Origin: Candidatus Woesearchaeota archaeon
GTDB lineage: Archaea > Nanobdellota > Nanobdellia > Pacearchaeales > GW2011-AR1
Assembly: GCA_964578845.1 (NCBI GenBank)
Contig: CAZOEF010000003.1
Span: forward strand, 5,009-69,008
Direction: 5' to 3'
DNA length: 64,000 nucleotides
A program made the position numbers and the translations under genes. This document shows, piece by piece, positions 28,591-48,006 of the stretch; positions within the stretch are counted from its first letter, which is position 1, and every line of letters begins with the position of its first letter. The notes below the pieces were generated by a model. It searched no databases. It was given only the letters and a program-made list of their open reading frames with translations, and was not told the origin of the DNA.

Positions 28591-31500
28591 CTATCTGATT
28601 TCAGCATAGAATATCACCTTTCTATCCCCGTTATCTATATACTCCCTTAATCTTGCAGGTATCCTTATTTCATAGTCATATATCCCATAAGTCCCTTGTA
28701 CATCTTTAGAAATATCTGTCACAAAAACTAAATCCTCTTTATCATCCTGGCTGAACTGCCCGTCGCCTATATCATCTGCTGTGTCCCAGAGTATTCCTGT
28801 AAAGAACTCTGTATTGTTTGTGGAATTTGCTGCTGGTATCTCATCTATAGTATTCCCGAAAATTATCAAGTCCAGGTCAGGGTTGCCTGTAAAGGTATTG
28901 CTGACTGAATCTACAAAACTTCCCATCCCTAACAAAGTATCTAAATCTGAAAGGTCATTAGCAGCATCCCCTTCAGAAGAAGTCTTGCCTATTGCCTGTA
29001 GATTAGTCCAGGAGATTGCAGATTCTGAATCAGCGACAAATAAGTTCCCATCCTCAAAATTGCTGGCATTCCAGATTAACAGTTTTTGGTCATCCTGGTC
29101 AGTCAGCCTGAATATGCTCTGTTCTTCTATTTGCCCATACACATATTGCCAAGCGCCAACTGTTGCAGCGCTGCTTATATTGTTATTCAATTCGTTCCAC
29201 TCCTCTATAGAGCCGTTGCTCAATATTGGAGGATCAACATGGACATGTATATCGCTAGTCCCTAAAGTGGCAGGCCAGTCTATTGAAACAATATCACTAG
29301 ATAATGGGTCTAATTGGTCTATAACCAAATCAGAATCTATTTGCTCTCCTCCAAGTAAAGGGTCTCCATCAAAGAATCTTACTGTTATGTTCCTGACAGT
29401 CACGTTTACTAGATTATATATTGCTGCATCCACTCTCACGGTCTCATTTTCCTTGGGGCTGGTAGAATTGAAGGTTATCGAAGAGGAATTGACCATCAGG
29501 TCTGCTAATGTCACATTGAAGACCCAGGTAACAGAGCTCCCCATATTAGGGGCATTATCAAAACAATCAACATCCCAATTATGCTGTCCTAGCTGATACT
29601 TTCCTAATGTCTGCACAGAAGAGCTTCCACTAGCCACATTAATATTAGTGGCGTTCAATACCCCATCCACATAAAGATTACAGCTAAGCTCATTGTCTAA
29701 GTTATCACTTACTGTGAAATTAAAGTCAACCAGTCTTAATACATTAGATCCGTTCAAAGGCAGAGTCAGATTGACAGTTGGGGGAGTTACATCTATAGTG
29801 AAGTTTGTTGTATTGGACTCTCCAGTATTGAAATCTGGGAAGGCATCAACACATTCAACATTCCAGTCATGGTGCCCCTCGCTTATTCCATTAACATCGA
29901 AAGTATTGTTCTGGTTAGCATCGACTGAATCATCGCTATTTATGAAGGAATCATCCATGAATAAAGAACAATTGAATATTCCAATCGCGTCCTCAGGCAG
30001 ATAAACAAATGTTAAGTCAGTGATATTCAATGTAGTGGTATCAGCCGGGAAAAGATTAGTGACTCTCGGAGGGGCTTCCATGACAAAAGAATATTCATCA
30101 CTTGAGTTGAAATTACCTGCATCATCGAAACATCCTATAGACCATGTATAACTGCCGTCCTGCTGGATGGAAGTTAGATTAGTTAGAGTTCCATTACTGA
30201 GTTCAGCGTCATCAATAGCGCTGAATCCATTAATGACAATATCGCAAGTCAATGACTGGTCTATATTATCAAATGCTGTTAATTCAAAAGTAATATTGTT
30301 CCAGTCAAGCAGGCTATTATTGGCGGGGCCAAGTATCTCAAAATAAGGTGCATGGGTATCTACAGTGAAATTCCTGGTTTCATTGCTGCTCCCTACTAGG
30401 CCAGTTAAGTCAGTCACATCAACGCTCCAGTTATATAATCCATCAGGAAGCTGGAAAGTGAAATTGTTCATGCCTCCATTTATCACTGCTGATTGGTTAG
30501 TAACATTTGCTAAACCGTTCAATATCAATGTTGAATTCGCTATGTTATCGTTGTCATCCGTAGTATTATAAAACAGGGTAATGTTCGGTGTACTAAAGAA
30601 ATGGTTGTTTTGAGGATTGATTAATTCTACAACAGGCGCGAATGCCAGGGTAAAGTTCCTTGTCTCGCTAGTTATAGAGTTGAATGCATCATCCACACAA
30701 GTCACGTTCCAATATTTCAATCCTCCTTGTGTGAAGAACACGCTCCTGTTAGTGATCGCGCCATTTGTAGCGTTGAATGAATCAACTATCTGGCTATTTA
30801 CATTGATATTACACTGCAGAAGATTATCTAAATTATCCGTGGCATTATAGCTGAATTCAACAGTATCTGTGAATAATTCATCTCCGTCAAAAGGATATAA
30901 CAAGCTTATATTGAGCCCGTCTGTGTCTACTGTGAATGTTCTTGTCTCTGATTGGTTTAACAATCCTATGATGTCTGTACAGTCCACTCTCCATAAATGT
31001 ACTCCTGAGGATATACCACTAATATTAAAGGCATTCACTCCTCCGTTCACTATCGCTGATTGGTTTGTCTGGCTGGAAGTTCCATCAACATATAGCTCAC
31101 ACATATTAAACGCTGTATTATCGATAGGCTGATATTCCAAAGTAATATTCGGCTCATTGAAGAAGGAATTATTTGCAGTCATTAACTGTATGCTTGGGCT
31201 TTCACTAACATTGACAAACCAATTCTCGCTAAATCCTGTAGCATCCGCGCTATTCACGCAGCTTGCATTCCACATCTGCATACCATCAAACAATCCATTA
31301 ACCACTCTGCTAACAATGCTGTTATTTGTTACAGTAAAGCCTAAATCTTGTTGGTTTCCTGCATACAGGTTACACACAAAGGAAGAATCAAAATTATCCA
31401 CCGCTGTAAAGTTGAAGGCCACTGTTGAAGAATTAGATAAACTGTTATTTGCAGGGGATATCAATGTTATTGTTGGGGCATTTAAGTCAGTCCTTATTGA

Positions 31501-34500
31501 TAAGCTTCTGCTGATGCTTGAGCTCTTGCCAAGCAAATCTGTTGCATAAGCTGAATAATTATATTCTCCATCAGGTAAACCTGTCAGATTAGCATAGAAT
31601 TGCCAACTGTCTGGATCATATTTAGAGACGCTTGTAGAATAACTCATGCTCACCTCTTCCGGGCTTAATGCCCTATCATAGATATTTACTTCATCAATCA
31701 TACCTTGCCAGGATTCCCCATAATTGGCGTTCAATATACCTATATACATATCAGCCACGCTTTCTCTAGAGATAGTTGTAGCAGTAGAATCAGCAGTGCC
31801 AACAAGCTCCCCGTTATAATAAAATTTCTTCCTTTCTCCGGATGGTAGCGAACCATCAAAAGTGACCGCTAAATGAGTCCATTCATTTGCTGTGACAGCA
31901 ACTCCTGAACTGTCTCTTTCTGTTCCAATATCAAAATATATTTCCCTATCTGTGAACAGGAATATGCTCCAGGCCCTATTGTTTGTTGAATCAACTCTCT
32001 TAGAGGCAATACCTCTTGCAAGCTCATCATTGGCTGTGTCTAGTATCCATGCTTCAAAGGTGAACTGGTCCATATCATCTAAGCTCGCATCATCAGGTAT
32101 TTCTATCCAGTCATTAGTTCCATCAAATCCTACAGCTGAATTATACCTTCCATTTTGCACCCAATTAGCATTTCCGTTTAAAACTCCGTTATTGCCATAT
32201 ATAGAAGAGTCAATAATATTAGTACTATTTTCTCCTAAGATTGTCCTATTATCTAGGTCCATCATAAGGACAAGGCTTTCATTGTATAAAGTGTAATTTG
32301 TATTATTCCATTGCCAGATAAAATCTGCTAAATTAGCCTCAGTCATTGAAATGTTTATTTCAGTATGATTAGCTGTGACTGTAGTTTCATCAGCAGGGGT
32401 AGGTGAGACAAAACTCATTGCAGGGGCAGTTGCATCAACTGAAAACTCTACTTCCTCTGAAGTTCCAGTAAGCCCGAATGTGCTTGTGCAGCTGAAGATT
32501 ACTGTATGCGTCCCATCTGCTACAGTGGGAAGTGCTGAAAAATAAGTTGAATTGGCCATAGTCATAGATACGTTTGATTCTCCATCAAGGCTATAACTGC
32601 AGGAATTGCTAGCCTTATCTACTGAGACTTCAAATGGAACTTGGCTAACTCCGTAAAGGTCTTCTAGAGGAGATATCACAGTAATCACTGGGGGAAGGGT
32701 TTCAGTAGTATTGATAATTACATATCTCACTTCAGTCATGTTAGAGTTTCCTGCAAAATTCTCAGCATAGCCATAATAGCTATACACACCATCAGCTAAA
32801 TTTGTCACATTTGCAAAAAATTGCCATGTTCCGCTATCTTTCTGGAATTCATAACTACTGTGGGCGCTTATCTCATCATCACTCAATGCCCTATCCCATA
32901 TCCTGAATTCGTCCACATTTCCTTCTAAGCCTCCTGAATCCCTAGATCCAATTTCATAATCAGGAGAGATAGCACTTATTGAAGTCTGTGTATCTGTTCC
33001 GTTATAGATATTTTCTCCATTCAGGTATATCCTTGTAGCGCCGTTATCAAAGACAAAAACCCAGTGGTTCCATTCATCAGTAGTAAGGATGTTCTGTACA
33101 GTGTGGCTGTTTCTCCAGTCACCTTCCAAATTCCATCTTAACCTTAAGTTTGATGACCCTGGAATATTGAAACTGTCCCCGAATTCTATCAATACATTGC
33201 CATCAGCCCAAAGCAAGTACTGGTCCTGTGAGAGGGAGCTTTGGTTCACCCATGTAGATATTGTTGCTTTGCTTTGCCCGTTAAGCTTATCAAAGGAAGG
33301 TACAGTCACTCGATCAGTTCCGCCTGAAAAACTAATTCCTCCGTCCTGTTTACCTGCAGAAATTAATGTTGCTCCATTTATTGTTCCATTATTTGTATAT
33401 TGGCTTAAGTCAGAAACTGTGTTAGCGTCTCCAAAATCACTCTCATTATCAAAATTATACGCTAAAACCAAATTTGGTTCAGGGATTAAATTAAGAGGCC
33501 CGCTTCCTAGAATAGGTTGGGTTATGTCTATTAAGTCATTTGTCGATTCATTTCCATAGAATAGACCAAGTTCATTAGGCCCAAAAGTATAATTCTTGCC
33601 ATTGAAATTAAATATGAATCTCTCTAGGCTACTGTCTTCTATAGTTATGTTAATAGGGATATTATTGATTAACCTCATAGTCCCATTAGTTAAGGTCGGA
33701 GGAGTAAAATATATTGAGGGTATTCCTGCTAAATTTATTGTTGTTGAATCACTCTCATCACTGTCATAATCTGATGCTGTAAAGCATCTTAGGTTATTTA
33801 CAGAATCCTGGTTTCCCTGCAGATTAAAAGTAGTCTGTACAGGGGTCGTCCCTATATTCCCTAAATCATGTGGATTCGTCTCTCCTGCTCCTAAAATAAT
33901 GTTTCCCGATGAGCTTATGTTCCGCCAATCTTCTGAAGAAGTATTGCTCTGTACATAGACTTCAACATTCCTGCATATTCCGATGGTGCAACTAGCTTCA
34001 CAAGTAACATTAAATGATTCACCCACTGCAGCTCCAGGATCAACTAAAGGATTGGTTAAGTTGGAGTTTACAAATCCCTCTGTAGTTATATTAATATCCA
34101 CAAATGAGCTGGTAAATCCTTCCCAACCATGAGTTATTGACCTTGCTTGTGTGCTATGGGTATTAAATCCATTGATAACTAATTGGATCCTATCTTGAGA
34201 GCTGAGATAAAAATCAGTTGGAAAGCAGGTTGAGTTTGAGGCAGTTTCTGTCCCGAGATTTGCAGGCTCTCCATTAGGGCCGTCATCTCCAAACTGGCAT
34301 AGAAGGCTAGTAGAGGTTGAATTCATCAGCAACAATTTCCAGGTCAGCTCAATATTTCCGCTTGTTGTAGTGAAGCTGCTTTGCCAATTAACAGTAGTCC
34401 CTGCAGGGATAATAGCTCCATTATTTCCCAGATGGTGTGATGTGGCATTAACCATATGTGCAAATTGCCCTGCAATTATGCTGAAGGCGGCAGTGTTTCC

Positions 34501-36987
34501 ACTTCCGTCCTCACTATCATCAAGATTTATTATAGCTGGATCATTTCCTGTAAAGCTCTGGGTAGAAGTCTCAAAAAGCCTTGTTCCAAAAACGCTTGGA
34601 GTTATATCAACATCGACTGTCTTATTGTCTGTTATAAAAGTATTCCCGCCGTCATCCGAGCATTCAACAGCCCATGAATGCTCTCCATTAGGGAGATAAT
34701 AAAAGAATGATTGGTTAATTGATTCTTCAACAGAATTGACAGTTGTAGAAAATATTCCATCAACATATAATGAACAGCTGCTGATCCCTGATGCTGCATC
34801 TGTAGCATTGTAGATGAATTCAAGGTCAAATGGATCATTAATTGTGCTCCCATTTACTGGCGAAACTAAGCTTACAATTGGAGGAGTTAAGTCAACTGTA
34901 AATGTCCTATTAGAAACTGCGAAAACACATTCATCATCAGTGCAGCATTCTACATTCCAGATAAATGTCCCGCTTGAACTATAGGAATTAGTAAAGAAAT
35001 TTTCTGATCCGTTTGTTATTGAGTTATCTGTCTGGTTCAGAACAAAGCTGCCAGTAGAATCATCCCATAAGCTGCAACTAACAATAGGATCGTTAGATAC
35101 TGGAGTGTAATTGAAAGATACAGGAGAGCTTACAAATCCATCATTTTCTGGGCTGTTTAATGTTACTCCGAAATTTCCGGTGAATGATTCCTCATAATCC
35201 ACATCAAAATATAGCACATCCCAGTTAGCAGTTGATGGCCCCCCTGCATTAGTGGTCTTTACAGCTTCTGATTTTGCTCTAGCCCTAGTTCCGCTCGCTC
35301 CGAAGAAATTTGAACAAGTCCAATCCTCTAAACTAGTTACATCCACGCAGCTCACTCCTGGATTCGGGCTAGTCCCCGGACAGCTGCTAGATACTGCCTG
35401 CCAGCTATTGTCACCATCATTATCGACCGAGATATCACAATCCGTTACTGAGCTAGTTCCTGTCCACCATTCATAGCATAGTTCTACAGTTTGTATTGTA
35501 TTGCAGTTTGTAATGCTTGAATTATAGGATTCAATTCTAATCCCTCCATACCTTGAATTTCCATGGATATTGTGGGCCTCTAAAAAACCATCGTTGCATG
35601 AAAGCAGATCCCCTGAGGATCCACAAGCTCCAGGATAACTTCCGTCGCAGGCAGATCCAAAGCTTCCTTGTGATCCTTGGCTTTCAGCTGAACATACTTG
35701 CGCCCTTAGGTCAGTAGCTCCCGATGGCGCTGCAGTCGGATCGACAATTAAATCAAATTCCAAGTATGATTCCCCTGTCCCTGACTGGTCAACCACTTTC
35801 AGATCAAAAGAATCATGCATTCCAGCCATTCCAGTCAATAATTCCCTATAATAGGCTTCAGCAGTTATCAATGGAAAATCAATTACCTTAATATCTGTCC
35901 CTGCTATATATACCTCAACATTGACAGGTTTGCCGCTTGGATTTCTTGCATAAAAGGTAATATCATTAACACTTGTCAAGCTTTTTTCAAAAACAACTCT
36001 TGCATATTCTCTATTATTAATTTGCTCACTCCATATTCCATCTAGAGATCTAACTTGTTGATATATATCAGAAATGAACTCTTTATTCTCATCAAGATGC
36101 TGTGCAGAGGTTATTAGGATTATGATAAAATTCTGATCACTATCCATTTCAGGAATTATCCACTCAATCCTGTCTATTGATCCATCATTATTCGTATCGA
36201 CAGGATTGAAATCTATGTACTTGTCTTTTTCTTGCCAATAGACTTTTATTGAATTTGGATCTAAGCCATCTACATCTGAAAAAGCAAGGACATTGTTATA
36301 TTTTAATCCTGAAGATTTTATCTTAACTTTCTTCTCTTTATTATTGATCAAAGTCTCTTCTTTTTCAGGTCCAGGAGTATAATATGTAAGTTCAGAATTG
36401 CCTCTAAAATTTATTGGCTGAATATATTTCTCAGTCTGTATATTTAATCCGACAATCCTCAAAAGACTAGCTATACCTCCATCATCTATTGTGAAATCTA
36501 TTTCTTCGTTCTCACTGGATAAAGTTATATTGTAAGCCTCTGAAGGAATTCCTATCCTTTCCTGGACACTTACCTCTTTTTTCCATCTAACAGGTTCACC
36601 TATCTTAACAAAAGTCTCTTCATTTTGATAGATTGAAGTCTGGACAACTTCATTGTTTAATATCTGTTGATCAATCACCTCAAATTGATAGGATTCAAGA
36701 TTATCTTCATAGAATAAGACTAATGTGTATTTTCCAGTTTCCTCAGGGTTGAATGCGAATACATCATCGCTCCCTTCCTTAAGGTATGAAGTTGAAGGAG
36801 TGTTTATTTTTATCCTATAATTATCAATTCCTTTTAAGTCTATGCTGACCTTCTCTCCCAAATAATAAGTCTCTTTGTTTATGATGGCAGATGACAGATC
36901 AGATGAAAAAAGTGTGAATAAGATTGCAAATGTTCCTAGAACAAATAAAAAGATAATTCCTAGTTTTACAATTCCCTTCTGGTTCAT
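28591..36987 (-). CDS. Giant (2798 aa) N-terminally anchored surface adhesin with 2 LamG-like lectin domains, more than 10 Ig-like repeats and a CARDB-like domain
   Basis: The N-terminal helix is VKLGIIFLFVLGTFAILFTLF. LamG-like modules lie at about 32870..33472 and about 31650..32274 (…VDEFRIWDRALSDDEI and …IDEVNIYDRALSPEEV). Repeats of P-x-I-x-L-x-S/P-x-N…F-x-Y…D…C-x-L recur through the protein. A CARDB-like module lies at about 29180..29470 and ends in EWNELNNN. N-x-S/T sequons are very dense. Confidence 0.85.
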   Translation of the reverse strand: MNQKGIVKLGIIFLFVLGTFAILFTLFSSDLSSAIINKETYYLGEKVSIDLKGIDNYRIKINTPSTSYLKEGSDDVFAFNPEETGKYTLVLFYEDNLESYQFEVIDQQILNNEVVQTSIYQNEETFVKIGEPVRWKKEVSVQERIGIPSEAYNITLSSENEEIDFTIDDGGIASLLRIVGLNIQTEKYIQPINFRGNSELTYYTPGPEKEETLINNKEKKVKIKSSGLKYNNVLAFSDVDGLDPNSIKVYWQEKDKYIDFNPVDTNNDGSIDRIEWIIPEMDSDQNFIIILITSAQHLDENKEFISDIYQQVRSLDGIWSEQINNREYARVVFEKSLTSVNDITFYARNPSGKPVNVEVYIAGTDIKVIDFPLITAEAYYRELLTGMAGMHDSFDLKVVDQSGTGESYLEFDLIVDPTAAPSGATDLRAQVCSAESQGSQGSFGSACDGSYPGACGSSGDLLSCNDGFLEAHNIHGNSRYGGIRIESYNSSITNCNTIQTVELCYEWWTGTSSVTDCDISVDNDGDNSWQAVSSSCPGTSPNPGVSCVDVTSLEDWTCSNFFGASGTRARAKSEAVKTTNAGGPSTANWDVLYFDVDYEESFTGNFGVTLNSPENDGFVSSPVSFNYTPVSNDPIVSCSLWDDSTGSFVLNQTDNSITNGSENFFTNSYSSSGTFIWNVECCTDDECVFAVSNRTFTVDLTPPIVSLVSPVNGSTINDPFDLEFIYNATDAASGISSCSLYVDGIFSTTVNSVEESINQSFFYYLPNGEHSWAVECSDDGGNTFITDNKTVDVDITPSVFGTRLFETSTQSFTGNDPAIINLDDSEDGSGNTAAFSIIAGQFAHMVNATSHHLGNNGAIIPAGTTVNWQSSFTTTSGNIELTWKLLLMNSTSTSLLCQFGDDGPNGEPANLGTETASNSTCFPTDFYLSSQDRIQLVINGFNTHSTQARSITHGWEGFTSSFVDINITTEGFVNSNLTNPLVDPGAAVGESFNVTCEASCTIGICRNVEVYVQSNTSSEDWRNISSSGNIILGAGETNPHDLGNIGTTPVQTTFNLQGNQDSVNNLRCFTASDYDSDESDSTTINLAGIPSIYFTPPTLTNGTMRLINNIPINITIEDSSLERFIFNFNGKNYTFGPNELGLFYGNESTNDLIDITQPILGSGPLNLIPEPNLVLAYNFDNESDFGDANTVSDLSQYTNNGTINGATLISAGKQDGGISFSGGTDRVTVPSFDKLNGQSKATISTWVNQSSLSQDQYLLWADGNVLIEFGDSFNIPGSSNLRLRWNLEGDWRNSHTVQNILTTDEWNHWVFVFDNGATRIYLNGENIYNGTDTQTSISAISPDYEIGSRDSGGLEGNVDEFRIWDRALSDDEISAHSSYEFQKDSGTWQFFANVTNLADGVYSYYGYAENFAGNSNMTEVRYVIINTTETLPPVITVISPLEDLYGVSQVPFEVSVDKASNSCSYSLDGESNVSMTMANSTYFSALPTVADGTHTVIFSCTSTFGLTGTSEEVEFSVDATAPAMSFVSPTPADETTVTANHTEINISMTEANLADFIWQWNNTNYTLYNESLVLMMDLDNRTILGENSTNIIDSSIYGNNGVLNGNANWVQNGRYNSAVGFDGTNDWIEIPDDASLDDMDQFTFEAWILDTANDELARGIASKRVDSTNNRAWSIFLFTDREIYFDIGTERDSSGVAVTANEWTHLAVTFDGSLPSGERKKFYYNGELVGTADSTATTISRESVADMYIGILNANYGESWQGMIDEVNIYDRALSPEEVSMSYSTSVSKYDPDSWQFYANLTGLPDGEYNYSAYATDLLGKSSSISRSLSIRTDLNAPTITLISPANNSLSNSSTVAFNFTAVDNFDSSFVCNLYAGNQQDLGFTVTNNSIVSRVVNGLFDGMQMWNASCVNSADATGFSENWFVNVSESPSIQLMTANNSFFNEPNITLEYQPIDNTAFNMCELYVDGTSSQTNQSAIVNGGVNAFNISGISSGVHLWRVDCTDIIGLLNQSETRTFTVDTDGLNISLLYPFDGDELFTDTVEFSYNATDNLDNLLQCNINVNSQIVDSFNATNGAITNRSVFFTQGGLKYWNVTCVDDAFNSITSETRNFTLAFAPVVELINPQNNHFFSTPNITLFYNTTDDNDNIANSTLILNGLANVTNQSAVINGGMNNFTFQLPDGLYNWSVDVTDLTGLVGSSNETRNFTVDTHAPYFEILGPANNSLLDWNNITFELTAFDNIDQSLTCDIVINGFSAIDDAELSNGTLTNLTSIQQDGSYTWSIGCFDDAGNFNSSDEYSFVMEAPPRVTNLFPADTTTLNITDLTFVYLPEDAIGIFNCSLFMDDSFINSDDSVDANQNNTFDVNGISEGHHDWNVECVDAFPDFNTGESNTTNFTIDVTPPTVNLTLPLNGSNVLRLVDFNFTVSDNLDNELSCNLYVDGVLNATNINVASGSSSVQTLGKYQLGQHNWDVDCFDNAPNMGSSVTWVFNVTLADLMVNSSSITFNSTSPKENETVRVDAAIYNLVNVTVRNITVRFFDGDPLLGGEQIDSDLVIDQLDPLSSDIVSIDWPATLGTSDIHVHVDPPILSNGSIEEWNELNNNISSAATVGAWQYVYGQIEEQSIFRLTDQDDQKLLIWNASNFEDGNLFVADSESAISWTNLQAIGKTSSEGDAANDLSDLDTLLGMGSFVDSVSNTFTGNPDLDLIIFGNTIDEIPAANSTNNTEFFTGILWDTADDIGDGQFSQDDKEDLVFVTDISKDVQGTYGIYDYEIRIPARLREYIDNGDRKVIFYAEIR

Positions 36988-37235: not shown

Positions 37236-38240
37236 TTAGATGCCTGGAGCTTGTGTTGCTCCAAAAATGATGTTTCCTGAACAGCTTCCAGCTACACCAG
37301 TAGGTACATAAATTCTCCAGTAAGTAGCATTTGTGTCGTCTAAATAAGGAGCTGCATCATTTAGTCTATAAGGCAAATTAAATCTTCTAACTACATTAGA
37401 ACTAGTAAGATTTGAGTACAGGGATTCAAATTCTGCCGGTGTTAAAGCACTGCTATTCGAGATAGTTAGATTATACTTTTCATAATTTACAGATATATTC
37501 TTTATTGCTCCAAGAGTGCAATTCATGGCCAAACCATCTCCTTGTGTGACTGCGTATCCTTCAAGGCTTAAATTAAGGAATACATTTCCAAAATTAGTGA
37601 CGTTAGCTAGTTGTTCTGATGAAACAAATGTGGCATTCACTTCACCATAATCAATTGAATCAGGCAAGCCTACTGCTAAAAGTGTATTAATAGTAATTAA
37701 GTCGCTGTCCTGATCAGTAAGGCTGACGTTGTCTGTAGCAACCACTGTAGCGTTCCAGGTAGCATTGTTTGCATAATATTCTACATCAAAAGTGCAGGAC
37801 GCATTGACTTCATACTGGTCTCCATAAGCTGTATCAATAAAGCAGGAATTATTAGTATAATGATGGTTATTATCATCTGCATCCCCGTAAGAGGAAGTAA
37901 CAGAATCAAAGAAATGGGCAGTAAAGTTAATTATATCATCTTCGCCATTGAAATCTCTTGCAATTATATTGACAATTACAGGGGTTGTAGCATTTGCAGT
38001 AAGATCTACTCCTGAATCATCATTATTGATCGAAACATTAAGAATTTCTGGTGAAACAGTCCCTACTTCAAGCTGTGTGTTGACAGTCACACTCTCTCCA
38101 ACTATAGCTAAAGCTAGATTAGGGAATAAAGTAAGCACTGCAACAAAGAACAGCACTTCCACAGTTAACAATATAGTTACGAAAAGAGCTTCCTTCTGTC
38201 TTAAAGGATTTCTATTTAAAGTATTATTTTTTTTGTTCAT
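37236..38240 (-). CDS. Secreted or anchored surface protein (334 aa)
   Basis: A polar basic N-region (MNKKNNTLNRNPLRQKE) precedes a roughly 25-residue hydrophobic segment. The protein is N/T/S-rich with many sequons and 4+ Cys. Confidence 0.6.
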   Translation of the reverse strand: MNKKNNTLNRNPLRQKEALFVTILLTVEVLFFVAVLTLFPNLALAIVGESVTVNTQLEVGTVSPEILNVSINNDDSGVDLTANATTPVIVNIIARDFNGEDDIINFTAHFFDSVTSSYGDADDNNHHYTNNSCFIDTAYGDQYEVNASCTFDVEYYANNATWNATVVATDNVSLTDQDSDLITINTLLAVGLPDSIDYGEVNATFVSSEQLANVTNFGNVFLNLSLEGYAVTQGDGLAMNCTLGAIKNISVNYEKYNLTISNSSALTPAEFESLYSNLTSSNVVRRFNLPYRLNDAAPYLDDTNATYWRIYVPTGVAGSCSGNIIFGATQAPGI

Positions 38241-38243
38241 TTT

Positions 38244-38969
38244 TTAAGTGAGTTCTACATAGAGATAATATGGAGTAGCTCCTGTGAAAGTTGCTGCTCC
38301 ATTCTCTGGGACTATCATCTGGAAATCATAAGTTCCCCCATCAAATCCTGTAGCTCCTTCCTCCATTATAGTTGCATATATTAAATTGCTTCCAGTTGAC
38401 TCATACAAGGCTATTTCTTCAAATGATAGATCCTGTGAAGCTCCGTTGACATAAGTGTTAAGTGTAGGGCATGAATCTGAGCCTATACTTGATGTCCCTA
38501 CAAAAAATGCATCGTGAGTGCCGCTCTGTCCGTTATTGAACGTTGCAGTAATATTATCTGAAAATCCTGTATGATTCATCCTGGTGTTCTCAAGTTCTAA
38601 AGTGGTCGCATTAGAGCAGTCTATATTAGTCCAGGAAATGCTTGAGCTATTTCGCGTAGCATATATCTCACCGCTTACTGAAGCAAGGCTCCAGTCATAA
38701 ATAGCAGATCCTGAAGCATCTTCAAGGCTAAATGTACCTGTTACCTCTCCTACAAATGCTTTCCACCTTGTATTTATAGTATCTGCTGTGATATTCAAAG
38801 TAGCTATGTATCCTCCTGAAATGTTTAGTTCATAAGCTGAACTTGTCCCTCCAGTCTCATTAGCCAAGACTGTAACACTGCTAGGCCCTTCAGGTGCAGC
38901 TAAAACAAAAGTAAACATAAACCCTGTCGCCACAAGCCCTAATATAATGATTAACAATGATTTAATCAT
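38244..38969 (-). CDS. Secreted protein (241 aa), paralog of 39011..39808
   Basis: It has a Sec-type signal, MIKSLLIIILGLVATGFMFTFVLA. It shares the blocks W..F.G.VTG, Y.WSLAS..GE.Y, ISW.NI.C, HD.FF, FEE..LYE, HDFQM.V and Y...VEL with the neighbouring gene. Confidence 0.7.
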   Translation of the reverse strand: MIKSLLIIILGLVATGFMFTFVLAAPEGPSSVTVLANETGGTSSAYELNISGGYIATLNITADTINTRWKAFVGEVTGTFSLEDASGSAIYDWSLASVSGEIYATRNSSSISWTNIDCSNATTLELENTRMNHTGFSDNITATFNNGQSGTHDAFFVGTSSIGSDSCPTLNTYVNGASQDLSFEEIALYESTGSNLIYATIMEEGATGFDGGTYDFQMIVPENGAATFTGATPYYLYVELT

Positions 38970-39010
38970 TACTTTCCCATTTGAAGTTTTTTTTTAAATT
39001 TCATCTTTAG

Positions 39011-39808
39011 TTACTCTAGCTCTACAAAGAAGAAATACGTTGTAGGTGCTGTATCAGTTCCGTGCCCATTATCTAAGACTAGCATCTGGAAATCATGAGT
39101 TGCCTGGTCAAAGCCTCCTAAATCTTCTTCTAGTAATGAAGCGAACACGACACTTGATGAAGTAGGCTCGTATAATAATACTTCCTCAAATTCCTGGTCT
39201 ACTCCTGATCCTGTATCACCATATACTCTAGTGCTTAGGCACTCATCAGCAGAGAACTGCTGGCTTGCAGTGAAAAATTCATCATGATCTTGCAATGAAA
39301 ATGTTTCATTTATTCCATCAACATCATCAAAAGCTATTCCAAATGTTTCTTCTAATACTGAAAGGTTAGTTCCTCCTAAGTTTGTTTCTCCAGGAGTCTC
39401 AGCTCCTCCAGCACCATTTGCCGTAAAATTAAAGCATTGGATATTTGACCAAGATATAGAGGTGTTAGTAGAGGAATAAACTTCTCCCTGTGGACTTGCT
39501 AAGCTCCAATTATAGAATACATCATCATTTGCATTTGCCAACTGAATAACTCCAGTGACATTTCCGTAGAAACCTTGCCAGGTCTGTGTTGTAGTATAAC
39601 CAAAAATATCTACATTAGTGACATTTCCAGCAGTAGCATTAGCGCTTCCTGCTGTATCAGCTAGTGCACCCTCAGATGTTCCAACAGTGGTTTCTGCTCC
39701 AGAAGGTCCAACTGCACTAGTCAAAGGAAAAAATGAAAATGCTAAAGCTAAAACAGCTAAAGCTATTAATGCTTTATTAAAAAATACTATGTTTGTTTCT
39801 CTTGTCAA
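39011..39808 (-). CDS. Secreted protein (265 aa), paralog of 38244..38969
   Basis: It starts at TTG, preceded by AAAGGTGAT (Shine-Dalgarno-like). The signal peptide ends in LTSA. The shared blocks are listed under 38244..38969. Confidence 0.7.
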   Translation of the reverse strand: MTRETNIVFFNKALIALAVLALAFSFFPLTSAVGPSGAETTVGTSEGALADTAGSANATAGNVTNVDIFGYTTTQTWQGFYGNVTGVIQLANANDDVFYNWSLASPQGEVYSSTNTSISWSNIQCFNFTANGAGGAETPGETNLGGTNLSVLEETFGIAFDDVDGINETFSLQDHDEFFTASQQFSADECLSTRVYGDTGSGVDQEFEEVLLYEPTSSSVVFASLLEEDLGGFDQATHDFQMLVLDNGHGTDTAPTTYFFFVELE

Positions 39809-39940
39809 TTTATCACCTTTGTAATAACTTTGTCACCAAGTCATTACCTCTTTCTTTATTGATACATAAAAATAGTAATGCTTTATAAATGTTTTCCTCC
39901 TTTTCAGTGAAAATACTCTTAAGTTTGTTTCAGTCAAAGA

Positions 39941-43148: not shown

Positions 43149-45254
43149 ATGAAAAGAGGTAATCTCCCGATTTGTTTAGTCGTGACATTTATGTTTTTAC
43201 TAACTATCTCAATTGTAAATTCTCAGGACGTTCCAACAATATTGGAAGTGCCATTTCAAGAAGGGGCTCCCGAGCTGATCAAAGTAATTCCTGATCAATC
43301 CTGGCCAGTGAATACTAACAATACCGAGGCATTTGATCTTGATGAATACTTTAGGGATAATGAGACCTCAAACCTGACTTATACTGCTACATTTGTTTCT
43401 AATATTAATATATCAATAGAAGAGTCATTAAATTCAACAAATGGAACTATGCATCTTGTTTCCTTCTATCCAGAAACTGATTTTACTGGAACAAGACTGG
43501 TAAGATTTATCGCATCAGATGGAACATTCCAGACTCAAAGCAACATAGTGACTTTGAACGTAGTGAACGACACAGAGCCGCCCCAATGGAGTTTTCCTGC
43601 AAAAGATAAGCTGACAATATTACAGAATGACTTTATCAATTTCACTACCCTCTGGACTGATAATGTTCAGCTGAGCAATTATACATTTTCTATAAATCAA
43701 GGATCTGGATGGAGCAATTCGTCGCGATCATTTTCTGGAACTATGGCAACTTCAGCTGAAAGGGTGCAGATAAGTGCGCCTGGAGGGACAATAGTGCAAT
43801 GGATGTTCTTCGCATCAGATACTTCCGGAAATATGAATGCCACAGATATCCAGAGTTTCACTGTCACTGCTACAAACACTCCTCCTACAACAGGCAATGT
43901 GGGAAATGAGGACGAGGATGATGATTCACCTAGTCCTGCTCCTGTCGAGGAAACGCCTAGAAATGAAACCCAGGATTTTTCTGTTTCAGCAGACTCATTC
44001 AGGGTTGAAGCTAAACAAGGAAGCAGGTCGACAATATCACTAAAAGTCACTAACACAGGTGTTGGGACACTTAATTTCACTATTGGGATAACTGGGCTGG
44101 ATATGTTTGATATATCTATTAGTGAAGATGAATTCTCCTTGATTGGAGGAGATTCAAAAACATTGATAATTGAAATATCTACTGATCGGTTCACCACTCC
44201 TGATTTATATTTTGGAGATATGCTTATCAGTGCCGCTGACAAGAACGTTACCCTTCCGATAATAGTAGAGGTAAAGCCGATAATAACAAGTATTGATCTC
44301 AAGACAGAAGTTATTGAAGAGGAAATCCTTCCTGGAGAGGACATAAATGCAAATATTACTTTGACTAATCTCGAAGACATTGAGGAAAAAGAGATCGAAT
44401 TATATTATGCGATTATTGATTATTCAGGAAATACATTAGACTCAAATCAGGAAACTCTGAATTTTTCAAGCAGGTCACTCGGGATGATCAAAAATTTGAC
44501 AATTCCTTCAGATGCCACCCAAGGAGAATATATTTTCCTGACAAGAGTGGTCTTTGATGATGAAATTAATATTGACTCTGACACTTTCCTTGTTGGAGCA
44601 AGGTTTGATCTTGCTGCATTTCTAAAAGCCAATCTGATTTTAGTTTTGATTGCATTGTTCTTGGTATCTGCTTTAGTATTTATCCTTAGATACAGGCAGA
44701 ATAAGCAAAGGCTAAAGCTATTGAACTTGTACTTATTGATGAACCAGATGAAATCCTTGCTTGAGGAAAACAAGATAGATGAGGCTATTAATATCTATAT
44801 AAAGATAAAAGGAGTTTATGGTGAGCCTCTGTCTCAGACAGCTATATATAACAAAGAAGAACTGAAAAAATCAGTTGAGGAGCTTGCAAAAAAACTGGAT
44901 CTTCTGGCAATAAATCAGCCCCCTCAGCCCCAAGAGAATGCAGAGAAACCTGAGCAGACAGCAGGCTCTAAAAATGAAACTAAGACAGAAAATCCAGAGT
45001 CAACTCCTGCAGAAACAGATCAATCACAGGCAGCAGGCTCTGAAGCTAAAATTCAGGCAGCAGAAAATCCAGAGTCAACTCCTGCAGATGAACCTCAGAC
45101 AGAGAAAACAATAGAGCAAAGTGAGCCCCCTGAAGCTAAATCTACTCAGGCAAATAAGAAAGCTAGACCAAAAAGACCAAAATCCGTCAAGCAAAAAAGA
45201 GCAAAAAAAGTAACGAAATCTAAAAAAGTAAAGAAATCTAAAAAAAGAAGATGA
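43149..45254 (+). CDS. Surface protein (701 aa) with signal peptide, Ig/CARDB-like modules, C-terminal TM helix, helical tail, acidic P/T/E repeat and polybasic terminus
   Basis: The signal is LPICLVVTFMFLLTISIVNS. The TM helix is LILVLIALFLVSALVFIL. The tail contains MNQMKSLLEENKIDEAINIYIKIKGVYGEPL. ENPESTPA occurs twice. The protein ends in KKVTKSKKVKKSKKRR. Confidence 0.75.
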   Translation: MKRGNLPICLVVTFMFLLTISIVNSQDVPTILEVPFQEGAPELIKVIPDQSWPVNTNNTEAFDLDEYFRDNETSNLTYTATFVSNINISIEESLNSTNGTMHLVSFYPETDFTGTRLVRFIASDGTFQTQSNIVTLNVVNDTEPPQWSFPAKDKLTILQNDFINFTTLWTDNVQLSNYTFSINQGSGWSNSSRSFSGTMATSAERVQISAPGGTIVQWMFFASDTSGNMNATDIQSFTVTATNTPPTTGNVGNEDEDDDSPSPAPVEETPRNETQDFSVSADSFRVEAKQGSRSTISLKVTNTGVGTLNFTIGITGLDMFDISISEDEFSLIGGDSKTLIIEISTDRFTTPDLYFGDMLISAADKNVTLPIIVEVKPIITSIDLKTEVIEEEILPGEDINANITLTNLEDIEEKEIELYYAIIDYSGNTLDSNQETLNFSSRSLGMIKNLTIPSDATQGEYIFLTRVVFDDEINIDSDTFLVGARFDLAAFLKANLILVLIALFLVSALVFILRYRQNKQRLKLLNLYLLMNQMKSLLEENKIDEAINIYIKIKGVYGEPLSQTAIYNKEELKKSVEELAKKLDLLAINQPPQPQENAEKPEQTAGSKNETKTENPESTPAETDQSQAAGSEAKIQAAENPESTPADEPQTEKTIEQSEPPEAKSTQANKKARPKRPKSVKQKRAKKVTKSKKVKKSKKRR
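44988..45088 (+). repeat. 75-bp tandem duplication inside the 701-aa gene tail
   Basis: The 26-nt string gaaaatccagagtcaactcctgcaga occurs exactly at 44988..45013 and 45063..45088. The period is 75 nt, which is 25 aa. Confidence 0.85.
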
Positions 45255-47440
45255 TAAAAAATAAATTCCTGGTTGCATTAGTATTCTTAGTTATAGTGGT
45301 TTCTCCTGCCCTTGCTCAAAGCGCTTACGGTGATCCTATTGATGCTGAATCATATACTATTTCAAGAAGCTTTGTAGACAGGGAGCTTGCTTTAGGGGAT
45401 ATATTCATGGATTCTTTTTCAATAGAGAACAAGCAAGGGTCTCAGATGTCTGTGACTCTTTCAACAACAGGAGAGATATCTGATTTGATAGAATTTGATG
45501 TTGCAGGAGTGATAATTGATGCGCAAAATAAGTCAGACATTGATTTTAATATAATTGCTAGAGAACTCGGAACATTCACTGGAACTATAGTTGTCTCAGG
45601 AGATATAAATGAAGAGATTCCTGTAAATTTGACTATCCTGGAACAGTCTAATTATCAAAAATTTATTTTGAATATAGAGCCATTGAAAAAAACTTTCACT
45701 TTGGATGAAAGGATAGAAGTAAAGATAAACCTTCGCCAAATACTCTCTGAAGCCCTGCAGAATGTTTCATTTGTCTACACTCTTGGAAAATTGAATGCTG
45801 AAAATTTCCAGATACAGTTAAGTCCTGAAGAGACAGAGAGCGAAGTATTTGTAAGATTGAGCCCGCAGGAAGAAGTCAGGGATATTGAGGGTTCTTTCCA
45901 GATAACTAAAAAATTTCAAATACCTGAAGAGGTGACTGAAGGGGATTATGTACTGAATGTTGTAGCCAATTACAAGAATGAATCTGTCCTGGCAAGCACA
46001 ACATTCACATTGACAATTCCCTTCCTTCAAATAAGATTATTTGGGCTGATACCTGTCTGGCTAATAATCACAATCGTCTCTGTCCTTGCTTTTGGGACTA
46101 TTGCTTTCTTGATAATACGCAGAGAGATAAAGAAAAGGAAAAAATACAAAATGCAGCTTGTCACTAACACGTTGCCAAAAAAGGGAGAGAGAAATCTATG
46201 GTTCGGGAAAGTTGCCGAGAAGAACATCCCTGCTTATTATGAGATGGATAAATTGACAACACACGCTGTTGTGGCAGGAGCTACCGGAGGGGGAAAGAGC
46301 ATTGCTGCGCAGGTCATAATAGAAGAGGCTTTATTGAAGAACATTGCTGTAATAGTCTTCGATCCAACAGCTCAGTGGTCAGGAATGCTTAGAAAAGGGG
46401 ACGATAAGAAAATGTTTTCTTTCTATCCAAAATTCGGCCTTAAGCCATCTGACGCCAGGGCTTTCCCTGGGAATGTTCGGCAGGTTATGAATGAAAGGCA
46501 GGTCATAGACATAGAAAAATACACTCAGCCAGGGCATATCCAGATATTCACATTGAATAAATTAGATCCATCAAAAATGGATGTGTTCGTCGCAAGTGTT
46601 ATTGCATCTATCTTCAGGTCAGATCCTAAGGAGCACCCTGGACTAAAGACCTTATTAGTATTTGATGAAGTCCATAGATTGCTTCCTAAATTCGGGGGTT
46701 CAGGCGAAGGATTCCTTCAGATTGAAAGAGCTTGCAGGGAATTTAGAAAATGGGGATTGGGAGTGATGTTGGTATCTCAGGTATTATCAGACTTCGTCGG
46801 AGAGATCAAGGCTAACATCAACACAGAAGTCCAGATGAGGACAAGGGATGAAGCTGATCTCAACAGGTTAAAAACTAAATACGGAGAAGAGGTCTTGCAA
46901 TCCCTGATCAAAGCATCTGTAGGGGTTGGAATGTTTGTAAATCCATCTTATAACAGAGGTAAGCCTTATTTCATAAATTTCAGGCCCATATTGCACAATA
47001 CTAGAAGATTAAGTGATGAAGTCCTGGAGAAATATAATCAATATGGGGAAGTAATAGATGACCTGGAATACCAGATAGAACAATTAGAAGCTGAAAAAAT
47101 AGATACATTTGACCTTAAGATGGAATTGAAATTAGTCAAGGATAAGCTGATGACTGGCAATTTTACTGTTGTTGATATTTATCTTGAAGGTTTGACTCCT
47201 AGATTTGAGAAGCAGTGGCAATCATTAGGAAAGAAGCCTAAGAAGAAAGAGATAGAACTGATAGATGCTAAGGAAGTTGAAGCTTCCATAAACCAGGCCA
47301 AGAGCGAAAGAGCTAAAATAGAATCTGGTTCAAAAGACAAGAAAGAGGGAAGTGACGAAGCTGATAAGCCTGTGAAAGAAAAGAAAAAATCTCCTAAAAA
47401 GGAAAAGATCAAAAAGCCAAAAGCAAAAAAACATAAATGA
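45251..47440 (+). CDS. Bitopic membrane protein: extracellular N-domain, one TM helix and a cytoplasmic HerA/FtsK-like (DUF87-type) P-loop ATPase
   Basis: The signal is FLVALVFLVIVVSPALA. The TM helix is aa 265-289 (46043..46117). Walker A is GATGGGKS at 46277..46300 and Walker B is LLVFDEVH at 46652..46675. REFRKWGLGVMLVSQ is typical of HerA-like ATPases. A C-terminal coiled coil and a polybasic tail follow. ATGA overlaps link it to the genes on both sides. Confidence 0.75.
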   Translation: MIKNKFLVALVFLVIVVSPALAQSAYGDPIDAESYTISRSFVDRELALGDIFMDSFSIENKQGSQMSVTLSTTGEISDLIEFDVAGVIIDAQNKSDIDFNIIARELGTFTGTIVVSGDINEEIPVNLTILEQSNYQKFILNIEPLKKTFTLDERIEVKINLRQILSEALQNVSFVYTLGKLNAENFQIQLSPEETESEVFVRLSPQEEVRDIEGSFQITKKFQIPEEVTEGDYVLNVVANYKNESVLASTTFTLTIPFLQIRLFGLIPVWLIITIVSVLAFGTIAFLIIRREIKKRKKYKMQLVTNTLPKKGERNLWFGKVAEKNIPAYYEMDKLTTHAVVAGATGGGKSIAAQVIIEEALLKNIAVIVFDPTAQWSGMLRKGDDKKMFSFYPKFGLKPSDARAFPGNVRQVMNERQVIDIEKYTQPGHIQIFTLNKLDPSKMDVFVASVIASIFRSDPKEHPGLKTLLVFDEVHRLLPKFGGSGEGFLQIERACREFRKWGLGVMLVSQVLSDFVGEIKANINTEVQMRTRDEADLNRLKTKYGEEVLQSLIKASVGVGMFVNPSYNRGKPYFINFRPILHNTRRLSDEVLEKYNQYGEVIDDLEYQIEQLEAEKIDTFDLKMELKLVKDKLMTGNFTVVDIYLEGLTPRFEKQWQSLGKKPKKKEIELIDAKEVEASINQAKSERAKIESGSKDKKEGSDEADKPVKEKKKSPKKEKIKKPKAKKHK

Positions 47441-48006
47441 AAAAGACAAGGAAAAATCATGCTAAGAAAAAGACTAAGCCAGCTAAGAAAATTGTAGAGA
47501 AAGCTGAAGAGACTTATGTCCCTTACAAGTCAGCCATAGCTAAAAAAGAAGAGAAGCCTGTTGCAAAAAAATACAAGACTTTTCTCTCAGAAAAGAAATT
47601 GAACCATTTGCTTAAGATTGGAGATGTAGAGGAATTCTATTATTTGGCTAATATTCTGAAAGAGAATGAGATTGAAGCGTTTATTGAGCACTATAAACTA
47701 AAAAAGCCGAACCCTAAAGAGAATAGAATTTCTGCGATGATCCATAGGGCAAAAACTCCTTCTGAGCTGCTTGACATTGTAAAATCAGAAAGTGCAAATC
47801 ATTTGAAAGAAAGATACGATGATCTGAAGAAATTGATCAGTGAAAAAAGGAAAAAAGGCAAGGACGTTTATGTTCCAGACATAAAGCTGATGTCAGTGCC
47901 TTTAAAGATAAAGATTTATTTGGCAACCATGGAGAAAAAAGACTTTTACAAAGTAAAGAAAATGCTTGATGATATTCAGGCAGAGCTTGAAAAAATTATT
48001 CCTTAA
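47437..48006 (+). CDS. Polybasic helical protein (189 aa), last gene of the ATPase operon
   Basis: It starts MKKTRKNHAKKKTKPAKK. An ATGA overlap links it to the ATPase gene. I recognised no family. Confidence 0.5.
   Translation: MKKTRKNHAKKKTKPAKKIVEKAEETYVPYKSAIAKKEEKPVAKKYKTFLSEKKLNHLLKIGDVEEFYYLANILKENEIEAFIEHYKLKKPNPKENRISAMIHRAKTPSELLDIVKSESANHLKERYDDLKKLISEKRKKGKDVYVPDIKLMSVPLKIKIYLATMEKKDFYKVKKMLDDIQAELEKIIP

What the first reader, a model, noticed from the sequence alone, without database searches (positions are those of the whole stretch)
38244..39808. Two tandem paralogous secreted proteins with conserved Cys pair and conserved C-terminal beta-strand: candidate filament or sheath subunits
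Seen: the 241-aa and 265-aa proteins both have Sec-type signals. They share collinear blocks: W(K/Q)(A/G)F(V/Y)G(E/N)VTG, (I/F)Y(D/N)WSLAS, ISW(T/S)NI(D/Q)C, HD(A/E)FF, FEE(I/V)(A/L)LYE, (Y/H)DFQM(I/L)V and a terminal Y(Y/F)(L/F)(Y/F)VEL. Two Cys are conserved in each. The upstream gene has a clear GGTGA-type ribosome-binding site, which suggests high expression.

Inference: small, abundant, beta-rich subunits with a conserved C-terminal strand recall archaeal donor-strand-complemented filaments (threads, bundling pili). The ends of these genes could play that role. This is speculative.
Basis: partly seen in the sequence, partly recalled or inferred. Interest (0 to 1): 0.6.

Follow-up and report, generated by a model that had tools for sequence, protein, structure and literature searches.

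The report
Undescribed DPANN surface-protein domain pair
The two genes encode exported, probably sugar-coated proteins built from a protein domain that appears in no database or paper I could search. In tiny symbiotic (DPANN) archaea the same domain also ends a giant adhesin-like protein and starts the outer part of a membrane ATPase, so they are most likely connector pieces of an unknown cell-surface machine, not strand-swapping filament subunits.

Summary
ORFs 38244..38969 (A, 241 aa) and 39011..39808 (B, 265 aa) are Sec-exported paralogs (35% identity, E 3e-39). Every listed motif is present, as are the conserved Cys pair, the fixed C-terminal YY[LF][YF]VEL ending and a GGTGA ribosome-binding site.

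They belong to a large unannotated family (796 clusters at 50% identity) restricted to Pace-/Woese-/Nanoarchaeota genomes. There is no Pfam, NCBIfam or PDB sequence match. A confident AlphaFold2 model (pLDDT 93.8) has no Foldseek match in the PDB.

The gene order B-A-C occurs in 52 of about 80 loci. In 35 of them a 2,000-3,000-aa giant protein lies directly upstream, and its last ~190 residues are a divergent copy of the same domain. The window's 2798-aa protein has this tail too. The domain also opens the ectodomain of ~1,200-aa membrane HerA-type ATPases (19 of 19 examined). The family co-occurs with the window's 729-aa ATPase type (odds ratio 21).

Donor-strand complementation through the C-terminal strand is not supported. 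The modelled domain is closed, it resembles no known pilin, and in the ATPases the chain continues past that strand. My best reading is a shared assembly or docking domain that joins adhesin, small subunits and membrane ATPase. The function is untested.

The parts
39011..39808 (-). Gene B (265 aa): Sec signal (aa 1-32), a ~45-aa conserved N-terminal arm, then the 'YVEL-end' domain core. It has 8 N-x-S/T sequons and Cys125/Cys190. B-type copies are the ones found fused to larger N-terminal parts (Beta_helix, LamG, Ig-like domains) in other genomes.
38244..38969 (-). Gene A (241 aa): Sec signal (aa 1-24), N-terminal arm (aa 25-68) carrying three conserved sequons, and domain core (aa 69-241) ending YYLYVELT. 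Cys118/Cys167.
39813..39817 (-). GGTGA ribosome-binding site four bases upstream of the TTG start of B. A TATA-like TTTATAAA lies at 39882..39889; it was read from the sequence and not tested.
37236..38240 (-). Gene C (334 aa): third member of the conserved B-A-C cassette. It has an N-terminal hydrophobic anchor or signal, 18 sequons and 4 conserved Cys. It is not detectably homologous to A/B. It represents a second modular domain family that also occurs at the C-termini of larger proteins.
28600..29181 (-). C-terminal domain (aa 2603-2796) of the 2798-aa giant adhesin-like protein (gene 28591..36987). It is a divergent copy of the A/B domain core and lacks the N-terminal arm. It ends ...VIFYAEIR.
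45251..47440 (+). 729-aa membrane-anchored HerA/DUF87-type ATPase. Its family co-occurs genome-wide with the A/B family. Its ~1,200-aa paralogs carry the A/B domain at the N-terminus of their ectodomain; in this genome that paralog is the 1215-aa protein at C3:76511-80158, outside the window.

Best explanation
A and B are secreted, disulfide-stabilised and probably N-glycosylated single-domain proteins of an undescribed beta-rich domain family specific to DPANN archaea of the Pace-/Woese-/Nanoarchaeota type. I call it the 'YVEL-end' domain.

The domain occurs in three forms: as small free proteins (A-type and B-type), as the last ~190 residues of a giant adhesin-like protein encoded in the same cassette, and as the first module of the ectodomain of ~1,200-aa membrane HerA-type ATPases.

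The most likely role is a shared assembly or docking module. Through contacts between like domains, A and B would act as connector or scaffold subunits. Together with protein C, they would tie the giant adhesin to a membrane-anchored ATPase base, giving a non-covalent, multi-gene version of the single-chain SPEARE-type giant surface proteins.

What is shown: homology, export signals, domain distribution, synteny, co-occurrence and a closed predicted fold. What is inferred: physical association of the domain copies, and the connector role.
For: (1) Paralogy and family size. A against B gives E 3e-39. There are 387 hits in the 90% clusters and 796 representatives at 50% identity. Every source name shown is 'hypothetical protein', from Pacearchaeota records.

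(2) The same domain sits in the partner proteins. The A2 profile finds it with near full-length alignments at the C-terminus of the window's 2798-aa protein (E 3e-8), at the C-terminus of a 611-aa protein, and at aa 56-244 of a 1215-aa membrane ATPase in this genome. It also ends 34 large proteins in related loci and opens 19 of 19 intact ~1,200-aa ATPases from 19 genomes.

(3) Synteny. B-A-C occurs in 52 of about 80 loci. A giant protein ending in the domain lies directly upstream on the same strand in 35 of them.

(4) Equal evolutionary rates. In the same 36 genomes, mean pairwise identity is 0.49 for the giant's C-terminal domain, 0.52 for B, 0.51 for A and 0.52 for C. Conservation of the giant protein rises towards its C-terminus, from 0.30 to 0.55. 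This is the pattern expected if that end contacts conserved partners.

(5) Co-occurrence in 301 genomes of the phylum. The domain is in 87 and the 729-type ATPase in 60, with 48 having both (odds ratio 20.7, Fisher p 1e-20). Of 45 genomes with close A/B homologs, 42 have the ATPase.

(6) Architecture contrast. Where the ATPase occurs without the domain, its ORF is giant (at least 2,000 aa) in 9 of 12 genomes, against 1 of 48 where the domain is present (p 1.4e-7). Five fused giants examined contain no A/B domain.

(7) Extracellular character. Sec signals, an invariant Cys pair and position-conserved sequons.

(8) The domain is self-contained. The AF2 model has pLDDT 93.8 and pTM 0.88.
Against: No direct evidence shows that any of these proteins touch each other. 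Multimer modelling was not available, and no transcript or proteome data could be obtained.

The ATPase gene is usually not adjacent; it lies within 10 kb in only about 14 of 80 loci.

Thirty-nine genomes have the domain, mostly as more divergent subfamilies, without a 729-type ATPase at E <= 1e-15. The link is therefore not obligatory.

The co-occurrence statistics are not corrected for phylogeny.

The giant protein XL shares only generic LamG modules with the ectodomains of the fused giant ATPases. The 'split versus fused' argument is therefore one of architecture, not of orthology.

Conserved aromatic and acidic residues would fit a carbohydrate-binding role equally well.
Confidence: 0.5

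Rival explanations
1. A and/or B polymerise into a filament, tube or sheath, which is the first reader's idea in its general form. Subunits would be linked by exchange of a terminal segment: either the C-terminal strand, or the conserved ~45-aa N-terminal arm that only the free subunits possess. The giant adhesin would sit at one end, as in tip-adhesin pili.
For: The gene logic (giant protein with a C-terminal subunit-like domain, then B, then A) parallels tip adhesin, adaptor and major subunit in chaperone-usher loci. Free A/B proteins carry a conserved N-terminal arm (aa 25-68 of A) that the giant's C-terminal domain lacks and the ATPase domain has only in part (profile start 46-69). That arm was unplaced (pLDDT below 50) with a shallow alignment. 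Some genomes hold tandem arrays of up to five A/B paralogs. The C-terminus is fixed in length. Conserved sequons are typical of archaeal filament subunits.
Against: The deep-alignment model is a closed domain with both the arm (pLDDT 87-94, modelled as coil and not as an inserted strand) and the C-terminal strand packed in cis. Covariation pairs both elements with core residues: 29-238, 50-70, 60-102, 72-236 and 222-235. There is no Foldseek similarity to any solved pilin, TasA-like or thread subunit. The signal peptides are Sec-type, not class III. No dedicated chaperone, usher or sortase was recognised. In the ATPases the chain continues after the 'terminal' strand. The domain is present in only 29% of genomes of the phylum.
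Confidence: 0.2
2. The domain is a carbohydrate- or host-surface-binding (lectin-like) module. In this reading the giant protein carries it at its distal end, and A and B are soluble or loosely bound lectins that recognise host envelope glycans.
For: It is a beta-rich extracellular domain with near-invariant Trp, Tyr and Phe and acidic residues (W69, W93, W113, D138, D215, E239 in A). It sits at chain termini of adhesin-like proteins that also carry LamG modules. DPANN cells depend on host contact (PMC6642349).
Against: Host-binding modules usually evolve fast. Here A, B, C and the giant's C-terminal domain all keep ~50% identity across many genera, and the C-terminal end is the most conserved part of the giant protein. 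Three or more paralogous copies encoded side by side, plus one on a membrane ATPase, fit mutual recognition better than ligand binding. There is no Foldseek or profile match to any lectin or CBM.
Confidence: 0.15
3. A and B are S-layer or other general envelope lattice proteins.
For: They are exported, carry conserved sequons and a strong RBS, and are conserved in sequence.
Against: They are found in only 87 of 301 genomes of the phylum and are missing from 11 of the 13 other sampled genomes of the organism's own family that are listed. A general wall component should be near-universal. The proteins are small (about 22-25 kDa mature). They are tightly coupled to an accessory adhesin cassette.
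Confidence: 0.05
4. A and B are secreted enzymes, for example a glycosidase or a protease acting on the host envelope.
For: His152, Asp138, Asp215 and Glu239 are invariant within the A-centred alignment.
Against: His152 is not conserved across the wider family, and the residues invariant family-wide are Gly, Trp, Leu and Thr, which look structural. There is no match to any enzyme family or fold. The modular use of the domain at the ends of structural proteins also argues against an enzyme.
Confidence: 0.03

Closest known systems
Chaperone-usher pilus loci (FimH tip adhesin with its C-terminal pilin domain, FimG/FimF adaptors, FimA major subunit)
   Same: The organisational logic is the same. 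A large adhesin's C-terminal domain is a paralog of small secreted subunits encoded next to it, and all are exported by Sec.
   Different: There is no sequence or fold similarity. The predicted domain is complete, not a groove-bearing Ig fold. No chaperone or usher was recognised. The organisms are archaeal, with no outer membrane. A HerA-type membrane ATPase carries the same domain.
SPEARE-type giant surface proteins of DPANN archaea (Hamm et al. 2019, PMC6642349): giant LamG/adhesin ectodomain, one TM helix and a cytoplasmic ResIII/HerA-like NTPase
   Same: The ATPase family is the same kind as the window's 729-aa protein and its relatives, which include single ORFs of 2,000-9,400 aa. LamG-bearing giant ectodomains occur in both. 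Both are presumed to act in host contact.
   Different: A and B have no TM helix and no ATPase. The YVEL-end domain is absent from the five fused giants examined and is not mentioned in the SPEARE passages I read. Here the adhesin, the small subunits and the ATPase are separate genes.
Archaeal donor-strand filaments (Sulfolobus 'threads', Pyrobaculum bundling pili AbpA / TasA-like) and the CPR Pam pili (PMC13278184)
   Same: They too are small, Sec-exported, beta-rich, glycosylated subunits of ultra-small or archaeal cells.
   Different: In those systems the donor strand is N-terminal and the acceptor fold is incomplete. Here the model is closed and no PDB chain matches. No Peptidase_M73/TasA Pfam hit was found.
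Cohesin-dockerin scaffolding of cellulosomes
   Same: The concept is shared: modular extracellular domains at chain termini plug separately encoded surface proteins into one complex.
   Different: There is no homology. Here the interacting modules would be paralogs of one another, not two different folds. The interaction itself is not demonstrated.

Membership tests
Donor-strand-complemented filament subunits (chaperone-usher pilins, TasA/AbpA, archaeal threads) | Incomplete Ig-like or jelly-roll fold that needs a strand from the neighbouring subunit | tested here: not met
   The AF2 model with a 144-sequence alignment is a closed domain, pLDDT 93.8 and pTM 0.88, with all strands satisfied in cis. 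This is a monomer prediction only, so strand exchange in trans is not strictly excluded.
Donor-strand-complemented filament subunits (chaperone-usher pilins, TasA/AbpA, archaeal threads) | Fold or sequence similarity to a solved subunit | tested here: not met
   Foldseek against the PDB: best E 1.4, TM at most 0.21. Profile against PDB sequences: nothing below E 0.36. No Pfam hit.
Donor-strand-complemented filament subunits (chaperone-usher pilins, TasA/AbpA, archaeal threads) | Terminal extension that acts as the donor strand | tested here: inconclusive
   A conserved ~45-aa N-terminal arm exists only in the free subunits. It is modelled as coil packed on its own core and covaries with core residues. 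Cis and trans contacts cannot be told apart.
Type IV pilins / archaeal T4F subunits | Class III signal peptide (cleavage before the hydrophobic helix, which stays in the mature protein) | tested here: not met
   Read from the sequence: a charged start, a hydrophobic core, then the small-residue sites VLA|AP (A) and TSA|VG (B), followed by a conserved P-x-G-P motif. This is Sec/SPase I type.
SPEARE-type giant surface proteins | Giant ectodomain, TM helix and cytoplasmic NTPase in one polypeptide | tested here: not met
   A and B are 241 and 265 aa with no TM helix after the signal and no NTPase. They co-occur with the ATPase family but are not members of it.
S-layer proteins | Near-universal presence in the lineage as the main wall component | tested here: not met
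   Present in 87 of 301 genomes of the phylum and absent from most genomes of the organism's own family.
Any curated protein family (Pfam-A, NCBIfam) | Score above the family's gathering threshold | tested here: not met
   A has no hits. B has only a spurious hit at E 0.1.
YVEL-end domain family (defined here) | Profile match over the ~190-aa core, the conserved Cys pair, and the C-terminal YY[LF][YFW]VE[LI] ending 1-2 residues before the stop | tested here: met
   A scores E 4e-88 and B E 3e-81 against the A2 profile. Cys columns are 99% conserved. 250 of 270 members share the ending.

The most novel reading that the evidence does not exclude
The cassette encodes a previously unrecognised archaeal surface organelle. 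In this reading a hexameric membrane HerA-type ATPase presents a ring of YVEL-end domains. Free A and B subunits stack or chain onto that ring, possibly by exchanging their N-terminal arms. The giant adhesin is plugged in by its own C-terminal copy. The result would be a powered, modular host-contact device: a multi-gene counterpart of SPEARE proteins, built on a protein fold not yet represented in the PDB.
Probability: 0.15. Interest if true: 0.85.

Novelty: categorically new. Interest (0 to 1): 0.62.

Why it matters
How DPANN archaea attach to and exploit their hosts is an open question, and almost nothing is known for Pace- and Woesearchaeota, which have no cultured members.

This family is large and conserved (about 50% identity across many genera) and entirely unannotated. 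It physically marks three classes of surface protein: small subunits, giant adhesins and membrane ATPases. That gives a concrete, testable hypothesis for how the giant adhesins are mounted on the cell.

It also provides a sequence profile for finding these loci, and a confidently predicted domain that matches no solved structure. A recent survey argues that truly new folds are rare in archaea (PMC13607799), so this domain is a worthwhile structural target.

Tried and rejected
(1) The first AF2 run, on full-length A with 41 sequences, gave a mediocre model (pLDDT 74, arm below 50). Foldseek searches with it against the PDB and BFVD found nothing. It was superseded by the 144-sequence run.

(2) Foldseek of the good model against the PDB found no match. 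No AFDB library was available, so an unnoticed similarity to a known beta-sandwich topology cannot be excluded.

(3) Profile searches of PDB sequences with A1, A2 and A3 found nothing significant.

(4) I tested whether protein C is a distant homolog of A/B. hhalign gave probability 21% over 25 columns, so I rejected this.

(5) I tested whether the giant protein is an ortholog of the ectodomains of fused giant ATPases. Only LamG modules match, so I rejected orthology.

A Pacearchaeota metaproteome paper (PMC11537232) reports only 'hypothetical proteins', and its relevant supplementary tables are not held. A Woesearchaeota metatranscriptome paper had nothing relevant.

(7) Literature searches for the domain or the cassette found no description.

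(8) An enzyme reading was dropped because the His is not conserved family-wide.

(9) Mean-field DCA (Neff 370) gave plausible strand pairings, but it cannot separate intra-chain from inter-chain contacts.

Full report
OBSERVATION

They are clear paralogs, with 35% identity and E 3e-39.

Each protein has a Sec-type signal: a hydrophobic core followed by VLA|AP in A and TSA|VG in B. Each has two Cys, which are 99-100% conserved in the family. A GGTGA motif at 39817..39813 precedes the start of B.

Of 270 family members, 250 stop 1-2 residues after YY[LF][YFW]VE[LI]. A has 7 N-x-S/T sequons and B has 8. Four of A's sequons are kept in at least 90% of A-type orthologs.

THE FAMILY

Neither protein matches Pfam or NCBIfam. 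Family profiles do not match any PDB sequence.

The family is nevertheless large. There are 387 hits among 90%-identity clusters, and the only source names shown are 'hypothetical protein' (three from Pacearchaeota records). There are 796 representatives at 50% identity. In GTDB species genomes the loci come from MAGs labelled Pacearchaeota, Woesearchaeota or Nanoarchaeota.

In most members the domain ends the protein. B-type copies also end proteins of 340-1,724 aa whose N-terminal parts carry Beta_helix, LamG or Ig-like domains.

STRUCTURE

A shallow alignment gave a mediocre model. A 144-sequence alignment of the mature protein gave a confident one, with pLDDT 93.8 and pTM 0.88. It has about 14 strands and two short helices in one compact domain. 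The first ~47 residues are modelled as a confident but irregular arm, and the C-terminal strand is part of the fold.

Foldseek finds no PDB match (best E 1.4, TM at most 0.21).

Mean-field DCA (399 sequences, Neff 370) pairs the C-terminal strand with core strands 69-83 and with the preceding strand (72-236, 80-236, 222-235). It pairs the arm with the core (29-238, 50-70, 60-102, 57-209/214). This agrees with a closed domain, although covariation cannot exclude the same contacts being made in trans.

I therefore treat the fold as unmatched, not as proven new. No AFDB or ECOD comparison was possible, and truly new folds are rare in archaea (PMC13607799).

CONTEXT: THE SAME DOMAIN IN THE NEIGHBOURS

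The deeper profile, searched against all ORFs of this genome, finds the domain in six proteins, all within about 50 kb of contig C3:
- A, B and a third paralog, B'. B' is 65% identical to B and lies 4.5 kb past the window end.
- The last ~190 residues of the window's 2798-aa giant protein (aa 2603-2796, E 3e-8).
- The C-terminus of a 611-aa protein.
- Residues 56-244 of a 1215-aa protein that continues through Ig-like modules and a TM helix into a HerA-type ATPase.

The pattern holds in other genomes:
- In about 80 related loci the order B-A-C occurs 52 times.
- In 35 of those, a 2,000-3,000-aa protein ending in the divergent domain lies directly upstream on the same strand.
- In about 6 loci, as in the window, a divergent pair of HerA-type genes lies upstream instead.
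- All 19 intact ~1,200-aa ATPases fetched from 19 genomes carry the domain at their N-terminus.

Protein C (334 aa) is not homologous to A/B. It is a second modular family that also ends larger proteins.

CO-EVOLUTION AND CO-OCCURRENCE

In the same 36 genomes, the giant's C-terminal domain, B, A and C have nearly equal mean pairwise identity (0.49-0.52). Conservation of the giant protein rises steadily towards its C-terminus, from 0.30 to 0.55.

In 301 genomes sampled from the phylum:
- The domain occurs in 87 genomes (60 of 225 genera; 1-9 copies per genome), and the 729-type ATPase in 60.
- Forty-eight genomes have both (odds ratio 20.7, Fisher p 1e-20, not corrected for phylogeny).
- Of 45 genomes with close A/B homologs, 42 have the ATPase.
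- Most genomes of this organism's own family have neither, so the system is accessory.

Where the ATPase occurs without the domain, its ORF is usually giant: at least 2,000 aa in 9 of 12 genomes, against 1 of 48 genomes that have the domain (p 1.4e-7). Those fused giants are of the published SPEARE kind (PMC6642349) and contain no YVEL-end domain. They share only LamG modules with the window's giant protein. The 'fused versus split' contrast is therefore one of architecture, not of orthology.

INTERPRETATION

The specific mechanism does not. The domain is predicted closed, with the C-terminal strand integrated. It resembles no solved donor-strand subunit. The signals are not pilin-type. In the ATPases the chain continues past the 'terminal' strand.

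The best-supported reading (about 0.5) is a shared assembly or docking domain. By contacts between like domains, it would join the giant adhesin, the free subunits A and B (with C) and the membrane ATPase into one surface complex.

A polymer reading (about 0.2) stays open. Its most plausible form uses the N-terminal arm. Only free subunits have the complete arm; the giant's C-terminal domain lacks it and the ATPase domain has it only in part.

A lectin reading (about 0.15) fits the aromatic and acidic conservation. It fits poorly with the slow, equal evolution of all four parts.

S-layer and enzyme readings are unlikely.

LIMITS

No multimer modelling was available. No usable proteome or transcriptome data were found. 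All functional statements are inferences.

Earlier notes of this scan describe the same domain family in other genomes. I reached the domain distribution independently and used those notes only as leads, including the pointer to SPEARE.

NOVELTY

I found no database entry or paper that describes the domain, the B-A-C cassette or its link to the ATPases. The ATPase-bearing giant proteins themselves are in print as SPEARE.

Noticed in passing
window 37236..38240; G000:C3:87605-88378; many genomes: Protein C defines a second modular family. It occurs as free ~310-335-aa proteins and as the C-terminal ~270 residues of proteins of 580-4,152 aa, in 57 of 301 genomes of the phylum. This genome has three copies. 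There is no Pfam or PDB sequence match.
   Followed up: partly
L007 (G000:C3:66000-84000), 4.5 kb beyond the window end: A second, partial cassette: B' (260 aa, 65% identical to B), a 186-aa protein that looks ArsR-like from its sequence (not scanned), and C' (320 aa, 61% identical to C). It sits beside the 1215-aa domain-bearing HerA ATPase, a 611-aa protein ending in the domain, and another giant protein.
   Followed up: partly
proteins P0139, P0156, P0188: In B-type fusion proteins, a weak sub-threshold match to the Nup98-type S59 autopeptidase domain (E 4e-6 to 2e-4) lies 100-200 residues upstream of the YVEL-end domain. It hints that the terminal domain might be released by self-cleavage.
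   Followed up: no
(family f1): Most of the other sampled genomes of the organism's own family lack both the domain and the ATPase. This genome has five domain matches and two ATPase matches. The surface island is accessory, either gained here or lost in the smaller relatives.
   Followed up: no
window 43149..45254 and 45251..47440: A jackhmmer search seeded with the 729-aa ATPase protein also recruits the adjacent 701-aa non-ATPase protein and its orthologs. The two share ectodomain and/or tail segments.
   Followed up: no
(G173, G178, G277, G093, G077): Several relatives have in-frame TAG, TGA or TAA codons inside their HerA-type ATPase ORFs. These could be pseudogenes, assembly errors or recoding; this was not examined.
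   Followed up: no
window 20304..21830, 24056..25057, 47996..50701, 52581..53288, 56209..57015: Ordinary neighbours by Pfam: a type I R-M HsdM methylase, a patatin-like phospholipase, a P-type cation ATPase, an SfLAP-family membrane protein and a SpoIIM-like protein.
   Followed up: yes
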